Below the pieces are notes generated by a model, which did no database searches, was not told where the DNA came from, and saw only the letters and a program-made list of their open reading frames with translations. DNA of 63,893 nt, the filler included, from Candidatus Woesearchaeota archaeon (GTDB lineage Archaea; Nanobdellota; Nanobdellia; Woesearchaeales; DATGWN01): NCBI GenBank assembly GCA_047603125.1. It is 5 parts of 5 records of this genome, joined end to end, with 100 filler letters (N's around TTAATTAATTAA, not from the genome) between each part and the next. Parts side by side here need not be neighbours in the genome. Positions count along the whole stretch, not along the records: positions 14,804 to 29,256 come from JBLKOU010000027.1; 4 more parts are not named here. One strand, written 5' to 3'. The position numbers and the translations under genes were made by a program. Each line of letters starts with the position of its first letter. Position 1 is the first letter of the stretch. Below are positions 740 through 53,520 of the stretch, in pieces.

Positions 740-874
740 TAGTCGACGACATTAATTTCGCATAACTCGGCGATTTCACGACAGTTGTCAAGTTTGCAAA
801 ATCAGAGCTGCATGAATCGCTCTGATTTTTGATTTTACGCCAAGGAGTTATGCTTTTCTTTTGCCGCTAACTAA
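740..874 (-). repeat. Structured repeat, form A, copy 1 (MITE-like imperfect inverted ends)
   Basis: 135-bp near-identical copy at 17061-17195 (one mismatch seen); stem GCATAACTC/GAGTTATGC. Confidence 0.9.
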
Positions 875-9122: not shown

Positions 9123-9300
9123 GATTTTATCAAGAATTGTTTTTCAAAAGAGCACTCAGATTTTGCTCAAAAGTCCTGCTTTGAGATTCGTGCGAAAATT
9201 CGGTTGCATGTTTTTGGATTCCCATCCTCGCGTTTGAAAGAAGCTTTTAAACAAGCAGTAAATTTTCAAAATTTTTGTAAATTCTGCAAATCTGATCTCA
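9123..9300 (-). mobile_element. Degenerate copy of form C MITE/structured repeat
   Basis: Aligns to 19000-19192; ends decayed. Confidence 0.75.
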
Positions 9301-17060: not shown

Positions 17061-17195
17061 TAGTCGACGACATTAATTTCGCATAACTCGGCGATTTCAC
17101 GACAGCTGTCAAGTTTGCAAAATCAGAGCTGCATGAATCGCTCTGATTTTTGATTTTACGCCAAGGAGTTATGCTTTTCTTTTGCCGCTAACTAA
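17061..17195 (-). repeat. Structured repeat, form A, copy 2
   Basis: Near-identical to 740-874. Confidence 0.9.
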
Positions 17196-17279: not shown

Positions 17280-17431
17280 GAGAAACAACACGAAAACTGT
17301 ACTGGAGAGTCCCACTTCCAGTACTTTGCCACAATTTTGCTGCAAGTTTTCAGATTTTTTATCCTCAAGTTTGAAAGAGGCTTTCAAACAATCGCCAAAT
17401 TGTGTAATGGTATTTCAAGGTGTTGTTTCTC
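17280..17431 (-). ncRNA. Structured repeat, form C' (stems rewritten)
   Basis: Form C core retained; GAGAAACAACAC/GTGTTGTTTCTC, GTACTGGA/TCCAGTAC and CACAATTT/AAATTGTG replace the form C stems. Confidence 0.75.
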
Positions 17432-17687: not shown

Positions 17688-17966
17688 ATGGCAAAAGTTG
17701 TTGCAACTATTCGCGTCATGCCCGAATCTCCAACTGTTGATTTGGCAATTTTACAAAAGATTGTTGAAGAGAAAATCACAGAATTTGCAGGATCTGCAGA
17801 AAAAAAGTTTGAACAAAAACCGATTGCATTCGGCCTCAAGGCACTTGATGTAACATTTATCATGGATGAAGATTTAGGTTCAACCGATGCACTTGAACAA
17901 ACATTAAAAACAATAGAGCATGTACAAGATGTGCAGACTACTGATGTTCGCCGTGCACTCGGCTAA
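17688..17966 (+). CDS. ef1b: Elongation factor 1-beta
   Basis: VMPESPTVDL, PIAFGLKAL. Confidence 0.95.
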   Translation: MAKVVATIRVMPESPTVDLAILQKIVEEKITEFAGSAEKKFEQKPIAFGLKALDVTFIMDEDLGSTDALEQTLKTIEHVQDVQTTDVRRALG

Positions 17967-18954
17967 GTTTTTGTAATACTTTTTTTATTTTTTCTTCTGG
18001 TAAATTAATACGAATTGATTCTTTTTCAAAAGTAGATTTACAGAGCAAAATATTTTTTTTCTCACAATACTGTTGTATTCGCTCAAAGGAAGGTATATTT
18101 GTTAATTGATGCTGCTTTGCAAACTTACCCATATGTACATACCCGACTTGAGAAATTGCAAATTCGAGTTTCAGTTTTTCAAACCAATCATCAACATGAA
18201 TCTGCTCTAAAAATTTTGAATCTGCTAACGATCCCACATATATTGGCCCGCATTGTTTTTTTTCTTGATCAAAAATAAACTCGTATTTTTGTTTGTCACA
18301 TACACTTCTTGACTTTTTCACACGAAAATAGACTCGATAATAATGATCTTTATGATATGAGAGTAGCGGTACAAGCGCGATTTCATATAAAAAACCAATT
18401 TGCTGACAACTCCGTATCAATGTGCGAATGCCAAATTCATGCTGCCAATACACATCTGCTGGTATCCCCCAGTATCTTCGTTTATGCGTTTGTTTACTTT
18501 TTGAGCAAAGCGCAGCTAAATCAGTTGCAGTTACTGCAACAATGCCATTATGCACAGCATTTTGAATAGCACTTGCAAGAAATGGCAGGGGTGAGCCGAA
18601 GGGATCAATATCAATATAATTAAAAGGCCCATTGGTAAATAAAAATGAATCTGCACGCATGTTTGTAACTGTGCATTTTGTATTATTTTCTTTGAGATTT
18701 TTTTTGATTGCCTCAACTGCTTTTTCAGACCAGTCGTTAGCGTAAAGATTATGTAATTTTGTTTCTTGCAAAATTCGAATCGCACGAACACCACTTCCTG
18801 CTAAGGGTAGAGCGACTTTTGCTTGATGAGGGAGTGTTTTCAAAACTTCAATGCAAACATCCCGATTATGTTTCATTTTTGGATTATAAAATACATTCCC
18901 ATCCGCTAATATATGTTCACTAACTGCGAGTTTTGCATTGTTTTCTTGAATCAT
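17938..18954 (-). CDS. trm1: tRNA (guanine26-N2)-dimethyltransferase
   Basis: VFYNPKM..NRD, IDIDPFGSP, VTATD, HYYRVY. Confidence 0.93.
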   Translation of the reverse strand: MIQENNAKLAVSEHILADGNVFYNPKMKHNRDVCIEVLKTLPHQAKVALPLAGSGVRAIRILQETKLHNLYANDWSEKAVEAIKKNLKENNTKCTVTNMRADSFLFTNGPFNYIDIDPFGSPLPFLASAIQNAVHNGIVAVTATDLAALCSKSKQTHKRRYWGIPADVYWQHEFGIRTLIRSCQQIGFLYEIALVPLLSYHKDHYYRVYFRVKKSRSVCDKQKYEFIFDQEKKQCGPIYVGSLADSKFLEQIHVDDWFEKLKLEFAISQVGYVHMGKFAKQHQLTNIPSFERIQQYCEKKNILLCKSTFEKESIRINLPEEKIKKVLQKLSRVHGEHQ

Positions 18955-18999
18955 TGTCAGTAAGGAAATATGTGTCTTTTAAAAAATAGAGGTTTTTTG

Positions 19000-19192
19000 G
19001 GCTTCATCCAAAAATTGTTTTCAAAAAGAGCACGCAGATTTTGCTCAAGAGTCCCGCTTTGAGAATAAAGCGAAAATTCGGCTGCATCTTTTCGGATTCT
19101 CATCCTCAAGTTTGAAAGAAGCTTTCAAACAATCACCGAATTTTCTCATTTTGCTGCAAGGTGCTCTTTTATCTTATTTTTTGGATGAAGCC
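19000..19192 (-). mobile_element. Intact MITE (form C) with 15-bp TIRs and 9-bp TSD
   Basis: TIR GGCTTCATCCAAAAA/TTTTTGGATGAAGCC; flanking direct repeat GGTTTTTTG (18991-18999, 19193-19201). Confidence 0.93.
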
Positions 19193-19210
19193 GGTTTTTT
19201 GGTAGAAACA

Positions 19211-19672
19211 TTATTCACTTAACTGAACAGAGTCTTGGCGTTCTCCTAAGATAGGAACTTCCCCGTAAAATTGATATGTTTGAAAATTTCGTAGATTTTT
19301 ATATGTAAAGTCAATATGTATTCGATAAACCTCTTCTATTTGAACTTGCTCTGTAAAAACGGAAATATTTCCTTGTTCACGCGGATCTAACACTAATAAA
19401 ATCGAATGCTCATTTGAGTTTAATGAAATATTTGTTATATTAATTGAATGCGCTAAATTATTTTGAACCACAAGAAAAAGATGTGTTTGATTTGCCACAT
19501 GCGCAACTATCCCAATATCACTTGCAGACCAATAACTTTGTGACGCGCGAACTTCTGCTGAGCTTCCTATAGCAGGAAATTCAAAGAGAGGGAGAATTGC
19601 AACTACAAGTAAAATAAGAATTAAACTCAATAATATCAAATATTCTGTTGCCCCTTGACTTTTTTTGTTCAT
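19211..19672 (-). CDS. Class III signal peptide pilin-like protein (short form)
   Basis: KKS|QGATEYL; paralog of the N-terminus of the upstream gene. Confidence 0.85.
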   Translation of the reverse strand: MNKKSQGATEYLILLSLILILLVVAILPLFEFPAIGSSAEVRASQSYWSASDIGIVAHVANQTHLFLVVQNNLAHSINITNISLNSNEHSILLVLDPREQGNISVFTEQVQIEEVYRIHIDFTYKNLRNFQTYQFYGEVPILGERQDSVQLSE

Positions 19673-19674
19673 TT

Positions 19675-22155
19675 TTAGCTCTGTATTTCCACATCCCCTA
19701 TTGTCCAGAAGGCCGAGTTATTTTGTTGTATGTTTACCAATGTCTGCAGTTCTTCTTCGCTCAATGCTCTTTGAACAAAACCCAGCTCGTCTGCAAAACC
19801 TCTAAAGGACCAAGTACCTCTATCGACCCAGCCCCCTATATGTAAATCGTTCAAAGAAGGACCCCATTCTCCTGAAGGAGCTGAACGAGAAGTTATTAAG
19901 TTTCCATTATAGTACAGCCTAAGAGATGTGCCATCTCGAACTAATGCGAGATGAGTCCATTGTGAATAGTATCCTGAGAAACTTTGTTGGCTAGTGAAAT
20001 GTCCCGAGCTTGCAACTCGAGTTCTTGCCTCTACGTTACTACTCGTAAGCTCATGCAAATAAAGCTCATTTGTACTATCATCTCGAAAACCAAAGAGCGG
20101 CTGATGAATACCAAGGTTTTGAATATAAAACCACCCAAAAATCGTAGCTTGATCATGGCCACTTAATTGATCAGCGGTTTGTGAAATTATTATTCTTTGA
20201 CCACCACTTATTTGCGTTAAATTTTGCGCATAACCAACTAAACCATCCATTTGTACAATTTGTGAAGGTGCAGTTTTAAGACTTTCAAAATCATTCTGTG
20301 TTTCATCCTTTATGTGCGTGTTATTCTTGTCACTCATTGTGGAATAAAAGGCATGATGCTCACTCCACACATTATGCATCCCATACAAGTCATCATCAGC
20401 AAAATCAGAAGCTAAAGAATTGTTAAAGTACACAAAATACTCTGTCGGCGTATCCGTAGCAAGCTCATCAGCATAGAAATAGATAATACCACGTTTTTGT
20501 GAAGCATTAAAATCCCGTACTCCTCTTGCGAGTTGCGTTTGCCCATCAGCCAAAGTTATTCGTATATCCCTACCATCACTTTGAACGGAATCCCAAAAGT
20601 CATCGTCTGAGATTTGCGATAAATCAAAAACAGCACCATATGGGTAGGATGCATTTACAAGAGAGTCATCAGAAGAGATGGAAAAGCGATTCGACCAATC
20701 GTTAAAGATGTGGGTCTGATTACCATCCCACGCTACAGGAAGCACTTCTTCTTCAATCGTCACTTGCCTAAGAGACGTTTCTAATAATTGACCCTGTGTA
20801 TTAGAAGCGAATGCTTGAAAGCTATATGTTTGTGGTACTAAATTACTAAATGTCCGTTCATAATTATCTGCAGAAGCATTATATAAAGATTGAATTTCTG
20901 ATTCTGAGAGTGCGCGATTAAAAATCATCACTTGGTCAAGTGAGCCTGAGAAGTACGTTTCCCACACAGTCCCCGGAAGATGACGACCTAACTCTAATGG
21001 TGTTTCTGTTTCGCTCATTCTTTGATAACTGCTGCCAATAAATGTTTCTGAAGATACTAGTTGCCCATCCACATACAACTCTAGTTCTGCCGTCAAAGGG
21101 TCGCCACCTGGATGAACAACTGCCACATGCTTCCATTGACCTAAATAATTTGTAAAAGGTTCATCAGCAATTGTTCTTGCCCAGTTATTTACACCATCTC
21201 CTGCAGCCCCATCGATTCTATCAAGGCGTAAGATGCCCTCAGTTGTAACGAAAAACCGATATTCTCCGCCTTGACCAACATGCGTTGTAATATCATGTTT
21301 TTGTAATATGTAATTGTTGCTGTCATCTGATGCAATATTAATCCATGCACTCATAGTAAAAGGCAATTCTTGCGAACCCTGTACGAAATTAAATTGAGAA
21401 TTATGACCAATAGAAATATGATCCCCAACTCCATCAAAAGAAAACGCTTGGCCAAACCTGCCAGCAGTTTGCGTTGCACCAGTATTTAAACCATGGTGTT
21501 CTCCCATCTGATCGAGAACATGTGTTTCATTATACTCATCCATTCGCCACCAAGCAACTAAGGAATCATTCCAATTAAGAGCGATAAAGTAATCTGAAGG
21601 AAATGTAGATTCTGCACGAATAGTTACGTTTTCAGAAATTTGAGTTGACTGATGCGCGGGTGTTGGCGCAGTAAAATATAATTCCGGAACAAATGGATCA
21701 GGTATGGGTTCACCCGTGGCTAACCCCATAAGAGGAATTTCACCAAAATAGGTGTAACTTTGTTGTGTTCGTAAATTCATGTACACAAAGTCCACATGAA
21801 ACTGGTAATTCTGTGCCTGCGTGAGGGGTATTTCTAACTCAATAAGCACACTCTTTTGCTCACCGGGCTTTAATTCAATATGGGTTTGATGCGAAATGTC
21901 TTCTATGAGTATTTGCGTAATATTAATGGAATGCAATAAATTATTTTGTAGGGCAAAGAGCATATGTGAGTAATTAAACGTATGACCGACTATACCGATT
22001 TCACTCATTTTCCAATAGGATTCTGATGCTCTTGACTCAAAGGAGCTTGCCATCATTCCAAATTCTAAAAAAGGTATGAGAATTATAATAAGAATCACTA
22101 ATATGACACCTAATAGTATCAAATACTCCGTTGCACCCTGACTTTTTGTTTGCAT
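19675..22155 (-). CDS. Pilin-like protein with LamG, DUF2341-like and second LamG domains
   Basis: KS|QGATEYL; LVAWWRMDE, WKHVAVV, LYVDG, RALS..EI; SDGRDIRIT. Confidence 0.85.
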   Translation of the reverse strand: MQTKSQGATEYLILLGVILVILIIILIPFLEFGMMASSFESRASESYWKMSEIGIVGHTFNYSHMLFALQNNLLHSINITQILIEDISHQTHIELKPGEQKSVLIELEIPLTQAQNYQFHVDFVYMNLRTQQSYTYFGEIPLMGLATGEPIPDPFVPELYFTAPTPAHQSTQISENVTIRAESTFPSDYFIALNWNDSLVAWWRMDEYNETHVLDQMGEHHGLNTGATQTAGRFGQAFSFDGVGDHISIGHNSQFNFVQGSQELPFTMSAWINIASDDSNNYILQKHDITTHVGQGGEYRFFVTTEGILRLDRIDGAAGDGVNNWARTIADEPFTNYLGQWKHVAVVHPGGDPLTAELELYVDGQLVSSETFIGSSYQRMSETETPLELGRHLPGTVWETYFSGSLDQVMIFNRALSESEIQSLYNASADNYERTFSNLVPQTYSFQAFASNTQGQLLETSLRQVTIEEEVLPVAWDGNQTHIFNDWSNRFSISSDDSLVNASYPYGAVFDLSQISDDDFWDSVQSDGRDIRITLADGQTQLARGVRDFNASQKRGIIYFYADELATDTPTEYFVYFNNSLASDFADDDLYGMHNVWSEHHAFYSTMSDKNNTHIKDETQNDFESLKTAPSQIVQMDGLVGYAQNLTQISGGQRIIISQTADQLSGHDQATIFGWFYIQNLGIHQPLFGFRDDSTNELYLHELTSSNVEARTRVASSGHFTSQQSFSGYYSQWTHLALVRDGTSLRLYYNGNLITSRSAPSGEWGPSLNDLHIGGWVDRGTWSFRGFADELGFVQRALSEEELQTLVNIQQNNSAFWTIGDVEIQS

Positions 22156-29040: not shown

Positions 29041-29177
29041 AGCAATATTACCTTGATGCCTCATTACGACATGGCGCGATTGTTTGAAAGCTTCTTTCAA
29101 ACTTGAGGATGAAAATCCGAAAATATGCAGCGCCTCGTCGGCAAGATACGCGAGTCCAAATCAATCGTAATATTGCT
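29041..29177 (+). ncRNA. Structured repeat, form C'' (stems rewritten)
   Basis: AGCAATATTAC-CTT-GAT...form C core...ATC-GTAATATTGCT. Confidence 0.75.
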
Positions 29178-29181
29178 GTAA

Positions 29182-29256
29182 AATAACAAAAGTTCGCTGC
29201 TCGAAGCTAATTGAAAAACACAAGTTTTTCAAACCCAGAAAACTAGAAAGTTTTCT
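29182..29256 (+). repeat. Repeat D (double hairpin)
   Basis: Reverse complement of 53401-53475; partial copy at about 560-597. Confidence 0.85.
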
Positions 29257-31308: not shown

Positions 31309-31324
31309 TTTTCTTTTGTGTTTC

Positions 31325-32700
31325 TCAATCCCATGAACCATCTGGACCAATGCGAGCAACAAAAATATCGTTATCACCAGTTGCTGTAAATTCTTGTGAA
31401 CCAAATAAAACAGTGTTTTCAAAAGCACCAGTTACTAATATAGAATCATCTGATAAACTACTAACACCTAAACCAACATCATTACCAATTCCCCCAATAT
31501 TCATTGCCCAAACCCAGTCACCATCTGAATCTATTCGAGCAACAAAAACATCTGTTCCTCCCACAGATGTGAGTTCATAGGAACCAAATGTGACTGTATC
31601 TCGAAACAATCCAGTTATTATGGCAGAATTATCAGACAAAATATCTATTCCCTGCGATGTATCAAAATTTTCTGAACCTTCCGCATTTGTGACCCACATC
31701 CAATTTCCATCCGAATCTATTCGAGCAACAAAAATATCCCCACCACCCTGTGATATGATTTCATTGGAACCAAATGTTACTGTACCTTCAAAATAGCCCG
31801 TCATAACAGCCGAATTATCGGACAAAATTGTGATACCTCTCCCTTCAACATCACCAGAACCACCAGCAGTAGTTGCCCAAACCCAGTCACCATTAGAATC
31901 TATCTTAGCAACAAAAATATCAGTACCACCCGCTGATATGATTTCATTGGAACCAAATGTCGCATTACCTGAGAAACCACCTGTGACAATAGCAGAACCA
32001 TCGGGAAAAATATCAACACCTCTACCTGAAGGTACAGCTCCCGTTGTATTCGCGCTTGTTACCCACTCCCATTCCCCATTTGCATCAACTTTAGCAACAA
32101 AAATCTCATTCCAACCCGCAGAAGTTATCTCAAGAGCTCCAAATGTTGCTGTTCCTTGAAAAAAACCTGTAATTATTGCAGAACCATCCGCTAAAGTCTT
32201 AACATCCCACCCCTCATCATTTCCACTCCCGCCCGCTTGTATAGCAAATGGTTCAAATGTCGTACTACCAGAAGAACCACCATTCGAACCTGATTGTGGT
32301 GGCAATGTTGCAGAAACCTGTCGTGTCGAATCTGAACCAATGGGTGCCCAATCAATTATAACATCAGACATCGCACCCCCTGCGGGCAAGTCACTCTATA
32401 TCGAGAGCCGACATTAAGTGTAACGGGCGTTAATAAACACGATTGCCCATCTAAACTCACATTCAATAATCGAATTGTTCGAGGCTGATTATTAAGCAAG
32501 AAAAACCCAATATCTTCACCATCTTCATACATATCAACGATTCCAACATCAAGTAAACGCAATTGCGCAGCATCTACCTGCTCGCCTGCTCCACCACCAA
32601 TTGAAGGAATTCCACCTAAAGAACCGACGACAATTAAAGCGATTATAATAACGACTGCCGTAATTATAAGATACTCAGTAGCAGTTTGCGCAACATTCAT
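31325..32700 (-). CDS. Pilin-like protein with beta-propeller head, split by a frameshift at about 32376-32380
   Basis: ORFs 32356-32700 (AQTATEYL) and 31325-32389 (G..DIFVAR.DSDG.W.W repeats) align continuously with paralog 44690-45367. Confidence 0.8.
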
Positions 32701-43807: not shown

Positions 43808-43997
43808 TGCTTCATCCAATAAATGTTTTTCAAAGAAGAGCACGCAGATTTGGCTCAAGAGTCCCGCTTTGAGAATCATGCGAAAATTCAGCTACACCTT
43901 TTCAGATTTCCATCCTCAAATTTGAAAGAAGCTTTCAAACAATCATCGAATTTTCTGATTTTACTGCAAGATGCTCCTTCTTTTTTTGGATAAAGCC
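43808..43997 (-). mobile_element. Form C MITE copy
   Basis: GCTTCATCCAA...TTGGATAAAGCC; full internal match. Confidence 0.9.
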
Positions 43998-47378: not shown

Positions 47379-47574
47379 TGCTTTATCCAGTAATTGTTTT
47401 TTTAAAAGAGAGCACGCAGATTTGGCTCAAGAGTCCCACTCTAAGAATAGTGCGAAAATTCAGCTGCATCTTTTCGGATTTTCATCCTCAAGTTTGAAAG
47501 AGGCTTTCAAACAATCGCCGAATTTTCTGATCTAGCTACAAGGTGCTCCTTTTTCTTATTTTTTGGAGGAAGCA
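47379..47574 (-). mobile_element. Form C MITE copy with 9-bp TSD
   Basis: TGCTTTATCC...GGAGGAAGCA flanked by ACAAAAAAC (47370-47378, 47575-47583). Confidence 0.9.
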
Positions 47575-52151: not shown

Positions 52152-52343
52152 AACTTCATACAATAATTGTTTTTCAAAAAAGAGCACGCAGATTTGGCTC
52201 AAGAGTCCCGCTTTGAGAATCATGCAAAAAATCGGCTACACTTTTTCGGATTCCCATCCTCAAGTTTGAAAGAAGCTTTCAAACAATCACCGAATTTTCT
52301 GATTTTGCTGCAAGGTGCTCTTTTTCTTTTTTTGAATGAAGTC
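52152..52343 (-). mobile_element. Form C MITE copy
   Basis: AACTTCATAC...GAATGAAGTC ends; full internal match. Confidence 0.88.
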
Positions 52344-52387
52344 AAAAAATGCCAAATATTTATAAATAATATAAAGAGATTTTTTTT

Positions 52388-53008
52388 ATGAAAGCAATCA
52401 TCTTTGACATGGACGGAACACTTGTAGACAGTATGCACATGCACTTTTTAGGTTCAAAGAAAATATTTGAAAAGTATAATATCGAATTCACACCAGAAGA
52501 CACACAAAAATATGCAGGTATTCCTGTAAAACACATCATAAAAGAAAAACTTCCCCACTTAAGCGACGAGCAAATACAAGAAATGATGCAAGAAAAAATG
52601 CAATTTATTTTAAACAACATGGACGAATATGCAAAACCCATGCCTGGAGCATATGAGCTTTTAGAAGATCTAAAACAAGCAGGGTATAAACTTGCAATTG
52701 CATCAGGAACACGTCAACAAATTGTCAATGACTGTGTGAAAAAATTAGGTTTTGAAAAATATCTTGATTGCTATCTCTCCTCAGATTTAGTTTCACAAGG
52801 AAAACCACAACCTGACATTTTCTTAGAAGTTGCAAAAAGACTTGATGTGTCTGCGCAAAATTGCTGGGTCATTGAAGATGGAGAAAGTGGGATGATTGGT
52901 GCAAAAAAAGCAGGAATGAGCGTTATTGGAATTTCTGATAAAAACACAATTCCTGCAGATATAATCGTAAAAGAATTAAAAGATATTACTGTCGCACACT
53001 TTACTTAA
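52388..53008 (+). CDS. HAD-family phosphatase
   Basis: FDMDGTL, GKPQPD, IEDG..G..GA..AGM. Confidence 0.93.
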   Translation: MKAIIFDMDGTLVDSMHMHFLGSKKIFEKYNIEFTPEDTQKYAGIPVKHIIKEKLPHLSDEQIQEMMQEKMQFILNNMDEYAKPMPGAYELLEDLKQAGYKLAIASGTRQQIVNDCVKKLGFEKYLDCYLSSDLVSQGKPQPDIFLEVAKRLDVSAQNCWVIEDGESGMIGAKKAGMSVIGISDKNTIPADIIVKELKDITVAHFT

Positions 53009-53287: not shown

Positions 53288-53394
53288 ATTGAGAGTTTCG
53301 CGGGTATAATACCCCGGACTTTAGTCCGCAAACTCTCAATTCAAAAGTTCGCGATTAGGTGAGAAGCGTAATACCCCGTCCCTTCAGGGCGGGG
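53288..53394. mobile_element. IS200/IS605-like end hairpins (non-autonomous remnant)
   Basis: CCCCGGACTTTAGTCCG and CCCCGTCCCTTCAGGGCGGGG, each preceded by TAATA. Confidence 0.6.
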
Positions 53395-53400
53395 ATACCT

Positions 53401-53475
53401 AGAAAATTTCCTAGTTTTCTGGGTTTGAAAAACTTGTGTTTTTCAATTAGCTTCGAGCAGCGAACTTTTGTTATT
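53401..53475 (-). repeat. Repeat D copy
   Basis: Reverse complement of 29182-29256. Confidence 0.85.
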
Positions 53476-53520
53476 GTCGTTAGCTATTTAAGGGTTTCAA
53501 AAAAAAGTTAAAGAAAAAAT

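What the first reader, a model, noticed from the sequence alone, without database searches (positions are those of the whole stretch)
19080..19140. Optional two-hairpin insert with GNRA-restricted loop variation indicates the functional strand
Forms C, C' and C'' insert GUUUGAAAG-CUU/CCU-CUUUCAAAC-UUGA-GGAU-loop-AUCC-GAAAA between GAUU and UGCA, where forms A and A' have only 2 nt. On the CUU strand the GGAU/AUCC loop reads GGGA (9.2 kb, 52.2 kb), GAGA (19.1 kb), GAAA (29.1 kb, 47.5 kb) and GGAA (43.9 kb). All are GNRA; only C' deviates. A polymorphism at the top of P2 (ATCACCG/ATCGCCG) alternates U-G and C-G only on that strand. GNRA tetraloops are an established RNA structural motif, which argues for RNA rather than DNA function. 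The loop UGC could also pair with the junction GCA as a pseudoknot (speculative).
Basis: partly seen in the sequence, partly recalled or inferred. Interest (0 to 1): 0.75.

Follow-up and report, generated by a model that had tools for sequence, protein, structure and literature searches.

The report
Optional hairpin cassette in archaeal MITEs
The two hairpins are a 42-base optional cassette inside small non-coding jumping elements (MITEs) of a tiny DPANN archaeon, and its mutation pattern suggests, without proving, that one strand folds as RNA.

Summary
Window 19089-19130 is a 42-nt two-hairpin cassette between GAUU and NN-UGCA. The window has 7 copies and the 1.1-Mb genome has 43.

It has 15-bp terminal inverted repeats, 9-bp target duplications and about 78 loci. 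Its ends often lie 14-16 nt from a BRE/TATA box.

The cassette tips helix P4 of a branched core (P2, CUU bulge, P3, junction). At least five sub-families with different stems and ends share this core. Each has a long and a short form differing by exactly this cassette.

Support for the CUU strand is moderate:
- G:U outnumbers A:C 50:5 in the inner helices but 65:94 in the outer ones.
- The cassette is about five times more conserved than the ends, apart from two free, purine-only loop positions.

Against it:
- Both strands fold equally well.
- The two hairpins show no compensatory changes.
- The related genome G007 has UUUA loops and no wobble bias.
- No canonical promoter lies inside, and no strand-resolved transcript was available.

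Earlier notes of this scan already described this MITE family on other DNA of the same genome. Verdict: a new variant of a known kind, with RNA function plausible but unproven.

The parts
19000..19192 (-). Full long-form MITE copy, 193 bp, read on the CUU strand. Terminal inverted repeats GGCTTCATCCAAAAA lie at 19000-19014 and 19178-19192.
18991..18999 (.). Left copy of the 9-bp target-site duplication, GGTTTTTTG. The right copy is at 19193-19201.
   Evidence: One search shows the sequence. One search scores it 9 of 9 identical.
19089..19130 (-). The 42-nt optional cassette, the subject of the finding. Hairpin 1 is 19110-19130 with loop 19119-21. Junction UUGA is 19106-09. Hairpin 2 is 19094-19105 with loop GAGA at 19098-19101 on the CUU strand. 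GAAAA is 19089-93.
19072..19082 (-). 3' arm of closing helix P4 on the CUU strand. The 5' arm is 19135-19145. Junction strands are UGCA at 19083-86, the free dinucleotide at 19087-88, and GAUU at 19131-34.
   Evidence: 11 of 11 P4 pairs change on both sides across sub-families. One search gives the per-pair counts.
19044..19063 (-). Hairpin P5: stem CUCAA/UUGAG with a conserved 10-nt loop AGCGGGACUC.
   Evidence: the loop is identical in 37 of 53 aligned copies and has one C/U change in 10 more; pairwise difference 0.042.
19024..19037 (-). One arm of P2 (19024-33) and of the 4-bp helix P3 (19034-37). The partner arms are 19154-57 (P3) and 19161-70 (P2), with the 3-nt bulge (CUU on the minus strand) at 19158-60.
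   Evidence: The same stem, CUU bulge and 4-bp helix appear in all five sub-families folded.
9211..9252 (-). Cassette copy, loop GGGA, in a degraded main-family element.
17347..17389 (-). Cassette copy of the divergent C' form, with pentaloop AAAAA and stem GGAU/AUCU.
29082..29123 (+). Cassette copy, loop GAAA, in sub-family 2. Here the closing stem is GGCGC/GCGCC and the terminal repeats are GGTTTGTGTAAAAATT.
43899..43940 (-). Cassette copy, loop GGAA, stem GGAU/AUCU with a G:U pair.
47471..47512 (-). Cassette copy, loop GAAA.
52243..52284 (-). Cassette copy, loop GGGA.
740..874 (-). P4 is AUCAGAG/CUCUGAU and is closed by the loop GAUU-CA-UGCA, with no cassette. A second copy lies at 17061-17195.
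   Evidence: repeat D10, 99% identical..

Best explanation
The two hairpins are a 42-nt optional cassette at the tip of helix P4 in the branched core of a MITE family. The host is a Woesearchaeota-type DPANN archaeon.

Shown:
- The host element is a DNA transposon derivative with 15-bp terminal inverted repeats and 9-bp target duplications. It comes in 150-nt and 193-nt forms, at about 78 loci in 1.1 Mb.
- Its ends often lie 14-16 nt from a gene's BRE/TATA box.
- The core consists of P2, a CUU bulge, the 4-bp helix P3, and a junction bearing P4 and P5. At least five sub-families share it, although their stems and terminal repeats differ.
- Every sub-family has a long and a short form that differ by exactly this cassette.
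- The cassette sequence is under purifying selection, apart from two loop positions.

Inferred:
- The inner core is constrained as a folded single strand in the CUU sense.
- That strand is most simply RNA, made by read-through or pervasive transcription.
- The cassette would add a stable G-R-R-A-capped hairpin pair to it.
- Its likeliest role is a cis-acting structure, such as 3'-end protection, a processing site or a terminator/insulator next to promoters, as proposed for bacterial MITEs.
- The cassette is dispensable for transposition.
For: It is a MITE:
- Of 29 copies with both ends found, 15 have flanking 9-mers identical at 8 or 9 of 9 positions (10 are perfect). A shifted control gave 0 of 28.
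- nhmmer found 78 loci.

The core is conserved:
- In P4, 11 of 11 pairs change on both sides across sub-families. 94.8% of cells pair, against 81.9% in shuffles, and 0 of 500 shuffles reached this.
- The same P2 / CUU bulge / P3 / junction fold appears in nine representatives of five sub-families.

Constraint on the cassette (34 copies with both ends, 19 of them long):
- Pairwise difference per site is 0.039 for the cassette without loop positions 2 and 3.
- It is 0.50 at those two positions.
- It is 0.19-0.21 in the terminal repeats and 0.21-0.32 in the junction strands.

Choice of strand:
- G:U to A:C on the CUU strand is P3 5:1, P4 37:3, hairpin 1 5:1 and hairpin 2 3:0. In the outer helices it is P1 47:76 and P2 18:18.
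- In 43 cassettes A:C cells are near-singletons, 8 cells at 7 pairs once the sub-family 2 internal loop is set aside. G:U variants are multi-copy, up to 14.
- Unpaired columns show no matching bias: C>T 83 against G>A 70 (approximate column assignment).
- Loops are G-R-R-A in 37 of 43. The neighbouring free dinucleotide shows all four bases.

Other points:
- The cassette is dispensable. Perfect 9/9 duplications flank 7 of 12 short and 3 of 17 long copies.
- A metatranscriptome run of the same study holds two short contigs covering the cassette, at depth 3 and 5.8. This is a weak hint with no strand information, and DNA carry-over is possible.
Against: - Both strands fold equally well.
- Hairpins 1 and 2 show no compensatory change, 0 of 13 pairs. 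Their structure is therefore inferred from complementarity alone.
- The related genome G007 keeps the frame but carries a different two-hairpin insert. Its G000-like cassettes have UUUA loops and UAA instead of UGA.
- G007 shows no wobble bias in P4 plus hairpin 1, at 4:5.
- No match of 6 bits or more to the organism's own BRE/TATA matrix lies inside the 5 copies scanned. No transcription start is known.
- Among tandem gene pairs, more copies face read-through in the opposite sense (22) than in the CUU sense (13).
- Short forms look younger and more prolific, which argues against a strong benefit of the cassette.
- Copies are related by descent, so cell counts overstate the number of independent events.
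Confidence: 0.5

Rival explanations
1. The two hairpins act as double-stranded DNA. Hairpin 1 is a perfect 9-bp inverted repeat with a 3-bp spacer, and hairpin 2 is GGAT-N4-ATCC. They would be palindromic binding sites for a dimeric protein, either the unknown transposase or a host factor. The optional 50-bp segment of the Neisseria Correia elements, which carries an IHF site, is the model. No RNA is involved.
For: - The hairpins are conserved in sequence rather than structure: 0 of 13 pairs change on both sides.
- The only free positions are the centres of the two palindromes.
- Fold energies are equal on both strands.
- The elements sit at promoter edges.
- No promoter lies inside the element.
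- The Correia precedent was read in passages of the review PMC2229807.
Against: - A double-stranded site predicts no G:U over A:C bias, yet 50:5 was seen in the inner helices against 65:94 in the outer ones.
- P4 covaries in 11 of 11 pairs, so a fold is maintained around the cassette.
- The purine-only restriction of the two free loop positions has no obvious reason in a spacer.
- The conserved 3-nt bulge breaks the palindrome in all sub-families.
Confidence: 0.2
2. The cassette is itself a tiny mobile or excisable hairpin unit, handled as single-stranded DNA. It would resemble a REP or a palindrome-associated element acted on by an HUH (Y1) enzyme, or be removed by structure-specific repair. 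The strand bias and the G...A loops would then reflect recognition of one DNA strand, not RNA.
For: - Long and short forms differ by exactly the same 42 nt in five sub-families whose P4 stems differ. The counts are main 27 long / 25 short, sub-family 3 3/17, sub-family 4 3/1, sub-family 5 1/1 and C' 1/1.
- Long and short forms are interspersed in the tree.
- G007 carries a different two-hairpin insert at the same site, flanked by a GATTGT direct repeat.
- Another repeat, R3, is nested at a fixed AATAA in three sub-families.
- The genome holds a relic of a Y1 transposase gene.
Against: - The Y1 gene is truncated: a 56-aa reading frame, a 67-aa open frame. It lacks the region of the catalytic tyrosine.
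- No TnpB was found.
- The cassette has no subterminal spacing or guide segments of the IS200/IS605 kind, because hairpin 1 starts at the boundary.
- No cassette lies outside a P4 loop: 43 of 43 are in that context.
- The wobble bias is strongest in P4, which is not part of the cassette.
Confidence: 0.2
3. The interior is a neutral palindromic remnant of a decaying MITE. The GNRA-like loops and wobble bias would be chance, or inheritance from a few master copies.
For: - Copies are related by descent.
- Counting pairs rather than cells weakens the bias: 13 pairs show G:U at least once and 8 show A:C at least once.
- G007 shows no bias.
Against: - The cassette and P5 are 4-5 times less variable than the terminal repeats and junction strands of the same copies.
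- The architecture and the cassette persist across five sub-families whose stems have turned over completely.
Confidence: 0.1

Closest known systems
Correia / NEMIS elements of Neisseria (bacterial MITEs)
   Same: - Small non-coding transposon derivatives with terminal inverted repeats.
- Two size classes, about 107 and 155 bp, that differ by one internal segment of about 50 bp.
- Transcripts fold into long stem-loops that affect neighbouring mRNAs, and promoter effects have been proposed.

Source: passages of the review PMC2229807.
   Different: - Correia elements duplicate TA; these duplicate 9 bp.
- The Correia optional segment is an IHF-binding DNA site.
- Here the optional segment is two hairpins on a covarying helix in a branched core, shared by sub-families with different ends.
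- The host is an archaeon.
ERIC (enterobacterial repetitive intergenic consensus) elements
   Same: The effect on mRNA stability depends on the orientation of the element, so one strand's RNA fold matters (PMC2229807, passages).
   Different: - ERIC is a simple imperfect palindrome, without a multi-branch core or a G-R-R-A-capped cassette.
- No transcript evidence exists here.
MITEs derived from the IS903 group of the IS5 family
   Same: - A 9-bp target duplication.
- Terminal repeats beginning GGC/GGT. The IS903 end sequence is recalled, not checked in any call.
   Different: No DDE_Tnp_1 gene was found in this genome. The DDE_Tnp_1 genes found in relatives are not flanked by this terminal repeat. 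The link is therefore unproven.
GNRA tetraloop hairpins of structured RNAs
   Same: G at position 1 and A at position 4 are fixed in 41 of 43 loops, and the middle positions vary.
   Different: - Three GAUA loops break the rule.
- Position 2 is as purine-restricted as position 3.
- G007 has UUUA.
- No receptor motif or tertiary partner was identified.
- The existence of the RNA is not shown.
High-density MITEs reported for DPANN archaea (census in PMC11602168)
   Same: The census names a Woesearchaea genome among the archaeal genomes with the highest MITE density, 105 per Mb (passage read).
   Different: In the passages read, the census gives counts only. It gives no core structure, cassette dimorphism or promoter-edge position.

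Membership tests
MITE (non-autonomous DNA transposon) | Terminal inverted repeats | tested here: met
   A 15-bp repeat, GGCTTCATCCAAAAA, lies at both ends. 34 of 53 aligned copies keep both ends with 4 mismatches or fewer.
MITE (non-autonomous DNA transposon) | Target-site duplication of fixed length | tested here: met
   A 9-bp duplication. 15 of 29 copies match at 8 of 9 or better, and 10 are perfect. The shifted control gave 0 of 28.
MITE (non-autonomous DNA transposon) | Small, non-coding, many dispersed copies | tested here: met
   Elements are 150-195 nt and lie at 78 loci in 1.1 Mb, in intergenic DNA.
MITE (non-autonomous DNA transposon) | An autonomous partner with the same ends | tested here: inconclusive
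   PF01609, PF00872, PF07282 and PF03400 gave no match in this genome. DDE_Tnp_1 genes in G007, G332, G058 and G354 are not flanked by this repeat. Transposase genes are often missing from such assemblies.
GNRA tetraloop | Loop sequence G-N-R-A closed by a helix | tested here: inconclusive
   38 of 43 loops fit, with 3 GAUA and 2 pentaloops. 0 of 4 fit in G007.
GNRA tetraloop | Present in an RNA molecule | not testable with these tools
   Only unstranded contigs of one metatranscriptome run touch the cassette.
Any Rfam family | Covariance-model match | tested here: not met
   The gathering threshold gave only rRNA and tRNA in the window. The best E-values on element copies were 5.1-9.9 and 0.2.
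Hammerhead ribozyme, type III topology | Core CUGANGA ... GAAA around three helices | tested here: not met
   The helix order resembles it, but the strand between hairpins 1 and 2 is UUGA, so the CUGA turn is missing. No Rfam hammerhead match was found. The consensus is recalled.
Kink-turn / k-junction (L7Ae site) | A 3-nt bulge followed by tandem sheared G-A pairs | tested here: inconclusive
   GA before and GA after hairpin 2 are conserved in most of the 43 copies. However, only 2 nt separate hairpin 1 from the GA, and G007 has AA instead of GA. The rules are recalled.
IS200/IS605-type palindrome-associated elements / REPs | An HUH (Y1) transposase and subterminal hairpins with guide segments | tested here: not met
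   Only a truncated Y1 relic is present, and no TnpB. Hairpin 1 starts at the cassette boundary.
Correia-like dimorphic MITE | Long and short forms differing by one internal segment | tested here: met
   27 long and 25 short copies in the main family, and the same dimorphism in four more sub-families.

The most novel reading that the evidence does not exclude
The branched core (P2, CUU bulge, P3, junction with P4, cassette and P5) would be an undescribed structured RNA. Several unrelated MITE frames in Woesearchaeota carry it as cargo, and it is expressed in the CUU sense. The 42-nt cassette would be a separately mobile expansion module that toggles in and out of the P4 loop by a precise, still unknown mechanism. 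The carriers would be aimed at the upstream edge of BRE/TATA promoters, perhaps by the transcription initiation complex.
Probability: 0.2. Interest if true: 0.8.

Novelty: new variant of a known kind. Interest (0 to 1): 0.55.

Why it matters
MITEs are usually treated as decaying DNA whose ends alone matter. Here the interior is better conserved than the ends, and it is shared by elements with different ends. A 42-nt piece of it is gained or lost precisely in five lineages.

If the core works as RNA, DPANN archaea would hold an abundant, mobile class of structured RNA placed next to promoters. If it works as DNA, these elements spread protein-binding palindromes to promoter edges. Either way it bears on how very small, gene-dense archaeal genomes tolerate, and perhaps use, some 100 transposon copies per megabase.

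Tried and rejected
- **Rfam.** Nothing beyond rRNA and tRNA at gathering thresholds, and no credible weak match on element copies.
- **A larger loop sample.** Exact-pattern scans of genome contigs found 0, then 4 loci all in G007. Scans of metagenome contigs found 0 and 0. The covariance model R1 matched only this genome among 151 genomes of the order; G007 was not in that draw. The loop tally therefore rests on 43 + 4 copies.
- **Transcripts.** No RNA holder was listed for window 17900-20400. Laying three metatranscriptome runs of the same study gave 0, 0 and 2 short contigs, which cannot show strand, ends or level.
- **Internal promoter.** A BRE/TATA matrix was trained on 449 upstream regions. 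It peaks at -35 from the ATG in 112 of them. It gave no hit of 6 bits or more in 5 element copies, so this idea was dropped.
- **Divergent transcription from the neighbour's TATA box.** Rejected, because the A-rich BRE lies on the element side and so points the promoter away from the element.
- **Hammerhead-like and kink-turn readings.** Not met or inconclusive; see the membership table.
- **Autonomous partner.** Not found.
- **Fold energy as a strand test.** Uninformative.
It says relatives carry the core at the end of a full insertion sequence. I could not reproduce this. The repeat shared around the G007 core-only copies is only 200-330 bp.

Full report
**What is there.** The window is five contigs (C5, C6, C7, C8, C38) of a 1,115,666-base, 70-contig archaeal genome, joined by N spacers. 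It is 37% G+C and holds an archaeal rRNA operon. Earlier notes of this scan call the organism a Woesearchaeota (DPANN) archaeon; I did not test this.

The first hairpin occurs 7 times in the window against 0.01 expected. The loops at the named places are as stated.

**It belongs to a MITE.** The hairpins lie inside a 193-bp element (19000-19192). The element has 15-bp terminal inverted repeats GGCTTCATCCAAAAA and a perfect 9-bp direct repeat GGTTTTTTG on both sides.
- A profile built from four window copies finds 102 pieces, which merge into 78 loci in the genome.
- Of 29 copies with both ends detected, 10 have perfect 9/9 flanking repeats and 5 more have 8/9. A shifted control gave 0 of 28 at 8/9 or better.
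- No gene for the transposase families tried was found: PF01609, PF00872, PF07282 and PF03400.
- DDE_Tnp_1 genes in four relatives are not flanked by this repeat.
- The same terminal repeat, with up to 2 mismatches, is present in 60 of 401 genomes of the order. It is multi-copy in several distant families: G058 25 hits, G278 23, G336 20, and G217 11. G217 is an unpublished genome, and nothing else here rests on it.
- Elements fetched from 7 of those genomes have quite different, G+C-rich branched interiors.

**Position in the genome.** The organism's promoters are strongly positioned. A BRE/TATA matrix (AAAnnTTTATAAA) starts at -35 from the ATG in 112 of 449 upstream regions, and at -34 or -36 in 85 more, which indicates leaderless mRNAs.
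- A strict TATA pattern begins 14-16 nt outward from the CUU-5' end in 16 of 47 elements.
- It does so from the CUU-3' end in 6 of 40 (offsets 15-16), against about 1% of 1973 random intergenic positions.
- Many of the flanks printed show a TATA-like box at this spacing that the strict pattern did not score; I did not count them.
- The gene on the 5' side of the CUU strand is divergent in 52 of 70 cases.
- Of 58 elements with both neighbours known, 35 lie between tandem genes, 21 between divergent genes and 2 between convergent genes.

The elements therefore sit at the upstream edge of promoters. Note e1-949735 reported this for five copies; I find it genome-wide.

**The core and the cassette.** On either strand the element folds into P1 (the terminal repeats), P2, a 3-nt bulge, a 4-bp helix P3 and a junction that bears P4 and P5. 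The two hairpins sit at the tip of P4.

The cassette occurs 43 times in the genome (45 loci, 2 unrelated). It lies in at least five contexts whose P4 stems differ completely:
- AAUUCGG/CCGAAUU
- GGCGC/GCGCC
- AUCAGAG/CUCUGAU
- GAAGCACC/GGUGCUUC
- AAAUGGGC/GCCCAUUU

Their terminal repeats differ as well. On 26 aligned copies, all 11 P4 pairs change on both sides. 94.8% of cells pair, against 81.9% in shuffles and at most 60.5% in slid controls. All five sub-families fold into the same P2 / CUU bulge / P3 / junction plan. By contrast, hairpins 1 and 2 are conserved in sequence, with 0 of 13 pairs changed on both sides.

**The cassette is optional in every sub-family.** The counts of long and short forms are:

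| Sub-family | Long | Short | Source |
|---|---|---|---|
| Main | 27 | 25 | (52 of 53 copies kept) |
| Sub-family 3 | 3 | 17 | |
| Sub-family 4 | 3 | 1 | |
| Sub-family 5 | 1 | 1 | |
| C' form | 1 | 1 | |

- In the main family the two forms are interspersed in a tree built without the cassette columns.
- The sub-family 3 short copies are nearly identical.
- Short forms equal long forms minus exactly GTTTG...CCGAAAA, and they keep the free dinucleotide (GAUU-CA-UGCA and the like).
- No cassette was found outside a P4 loop.
- Short copies look younger: 7 of 12 short and 3 of 17 long copies have perfect duplications.
- In the related genome G007 (same family, other genus), 13 full copies keep the frame but carry a different two-hairpin insert at the same place. 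That insert is flanked by a GATTGT direct repeat.

How the same 42 nt is gained or lost so precisely in five lineages is unexplained.

**Is the loop variation meaningful?** Over 43 cassettes the loops are GAAA 14, GAGA 12, GGGA 7, GGAA 4, GUGA 1, GAUA 3 and two pentaloops.
- G1 and A4 are fixed in 41 of 43.
- Positions 2 and 3 are the only freely varying sites. Their pairwise difference is 0.50, against 0.039 for the other 40 positions (19 long copies).
- In the same copies the terminal repeats differ by 0.19-0.21 and the junction strands by 0.21-0.32. The cassette and P5 (0.042) are thus the best-kept parts of the element, the reverse of what is usual for MITEs.
- The GNRA rule itself is a weak test. 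Position 2, free under the rule, is purine in 40 of 41 loops and position 3 in 38 of 41, while the nearby free dinucleotide uses all four bases.
- The data therefore say G-R-R-A, with three exceptions.
- The four G000-like cassettes of G007 read UUUA, with UAA instead of UGA before the hairpin.

**Which strand?** Fold energies do not decide. They are -67.1 against -68.7 kcal/mol, and the CUU strand is lower in 5 of 9 representatives. Wobble pairs do discriminate. In 53 main-family copies, G:U against A:C on the CUU strand is as follows:

| Helix | G:U | A:C |
|---|---|---|
| P3 | 5 | 1 |
| P4 | 37 | 3 |
| Hairpin 1 | 5 | 1 |
| Hairpin 2 | 3 | 0 |
| P1 (outer) | 47 | 76 |
| P2 (outer) | 18 | 18 |

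- The outer helices serve as an internal control against a general mutational strand bias. Unpaired columns likewise show C>T 83 against G>A 70 (with an approximate column map).
- In the model-based alignment of 43 cassettes the totals are 43 to 14, and 6 of the 14 lie in an internal loop of sub-family 2.
- A:C variants are near-singletons, whereas G:U variants reach 14 copies.
- The reference structure came from the CUU strand, and one counted pair is U-G in the reference itself. Without that pair, P4 is still 22:3.
- Counted by pairs rather than cells, the contrast is 13 to 8.
- G007 gives no support: P4 plus hairpin 1 is 4:5. Its 11:1 in the second hairpin comes mostly from one inherited position.

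I read this as moderate evidence that the inner core, but not the terminal repeats, is constrained as a folded single strand in the CUU sense.

**RNA or DNA?** RNA is the simplest single-stranded form for an element that moves with terminal repeats and 9-bp duplications. It is not shown, and several points count against it:
- No canonical promoter lies inside the element.
- Tandem neighbours would read through more often in the opposite sense (22 against 13).
- The only transcript-library signal is two short unstranded contigs in one of three runs.
- Loops with a sheared G-A pair are also stable in single-stranded DNA (recalled).
- The genome holds a truncated Y1 (HUH) transposase relic.
- The cassette behaves as a discrete unit.

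A single-stranded-DNA reading therefore stays open. So does the reading of the two perfect palindromes as double-stranded protein sites, for which the optional IHF-binding segment of Correia elements is a close precedent (PMC2229807, passages).

**Comparison and novelty.** The element meets the defining features of a MITE. Its long/short dimorphism parallels Correia elements, and its orientation-dependent RNA reading parallels ERIC.

Three features were not found described in the papers searched: the conserved, covarying branched core shared by sub-families with different ends; the precise toggling of a 42-nt cassette; and the position at the BRE/TATA edge.
- Searching 'miniature inverted-repeat transposable' with 'DPANN' returned 3 papers. 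One was a census that only counts MITEs per Mb; I read its passages.
- 'MITE' + 'archaea' + 'GNRA' returned 2 unrelated papers.
- 'MITE' + 'Woesearchaeota' returned 3 unrelated papers.
- 'MITEs' + 'archaeal' + 'TATA box' + 'target site duplication' returned 0.

Subscription journals are not in that library. Earlier notes of this scan had already described this family on other DNA of the same genome (e1-949735, e1-6982087) and like families in other Woesearchaeota genomes. The finding is therefore not new to the scan.

**Verdict.** The object is a new variant of a known kind, with an open and testable question about an RNA-level role.

Noticed in passing
window 53290-53480 (minus strand); also window 29180-29256 (end of contig C6): A third repeat of about 190 nt, richer in G+C and hairpin-rich. 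It begins CAAAAGTTCGCTGCTCGAAGC and ends GCGAAACTCTCAATAA. Elsewhere in the genome it is nested at the AATAA of the 5' arm of main, sub-family 2 and sub-family 4 elements (for example C21:2161-2540, C43:10702-11079, C45:337 and C53:18832). This explains copies that seem to lack one terminal repeat. It has no Rfam match.
   Followed up: partly
genome-wide; in the window at 740-874 and 17061-17195: Sub-family 3 short forms, without the cassette, are the most uniform and probably the youngest burst. There are 17 near-identical copies against 3 diverged long copies. Their ends, about TTAGTYRRCGG, differ from those of the main family.
   Followed up: partly
G000 contig C25:38117-38290 (locus L117:1483-1653, minus strand), outside the window: A truncated IS200-type Y1 (HUH) transposase relic. 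It keeps the HVH motif and ends before the region of the catalytic tyrosine. The reading frame is 56 aa and 67 aa.
   Followed up: partly
loci L097-L116 (genomes G354, G170, G399, G336, G278, G086, G159): MITEs of 104-206 bp in other families of the order share the terminal repeat GGCTTCATCCAAAAAAT but have unrelated, G+C-rich branched interiors. The apical loops read GUAA on one strand in three of the seven genomes, UACG in one and a GAA triloop in one. This was read by eye after the fact and was not tested.
   Followed up: no
upstream regions genome-wide; for example window 52340-52390: Promoters are very uniform: AAAnnTTTATAAA starts 34-36 nt before the ATG in 197 of 449 upstream regions. 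Most mRNAs of this organism therefore appear to be leaderless.
   Followed up: partly
contig C60:19945-19965 (locus L047): One cassette copy has the loop of hairpin 1 inverted (AAG instead of CUU on the CUU strand), while hairpin 2 keeps GGGA. This looks like a hairpin-loop inversion of the kind made at the DNA level.
   Followed up: no
window 31320-32213: Tandem 183-186-nt repeats inside a minus-strand reading frame (31325-32389), seen in the repeat scan. They are probably a repeat-domain protein and unrelated to the finding.
   Followed up: no
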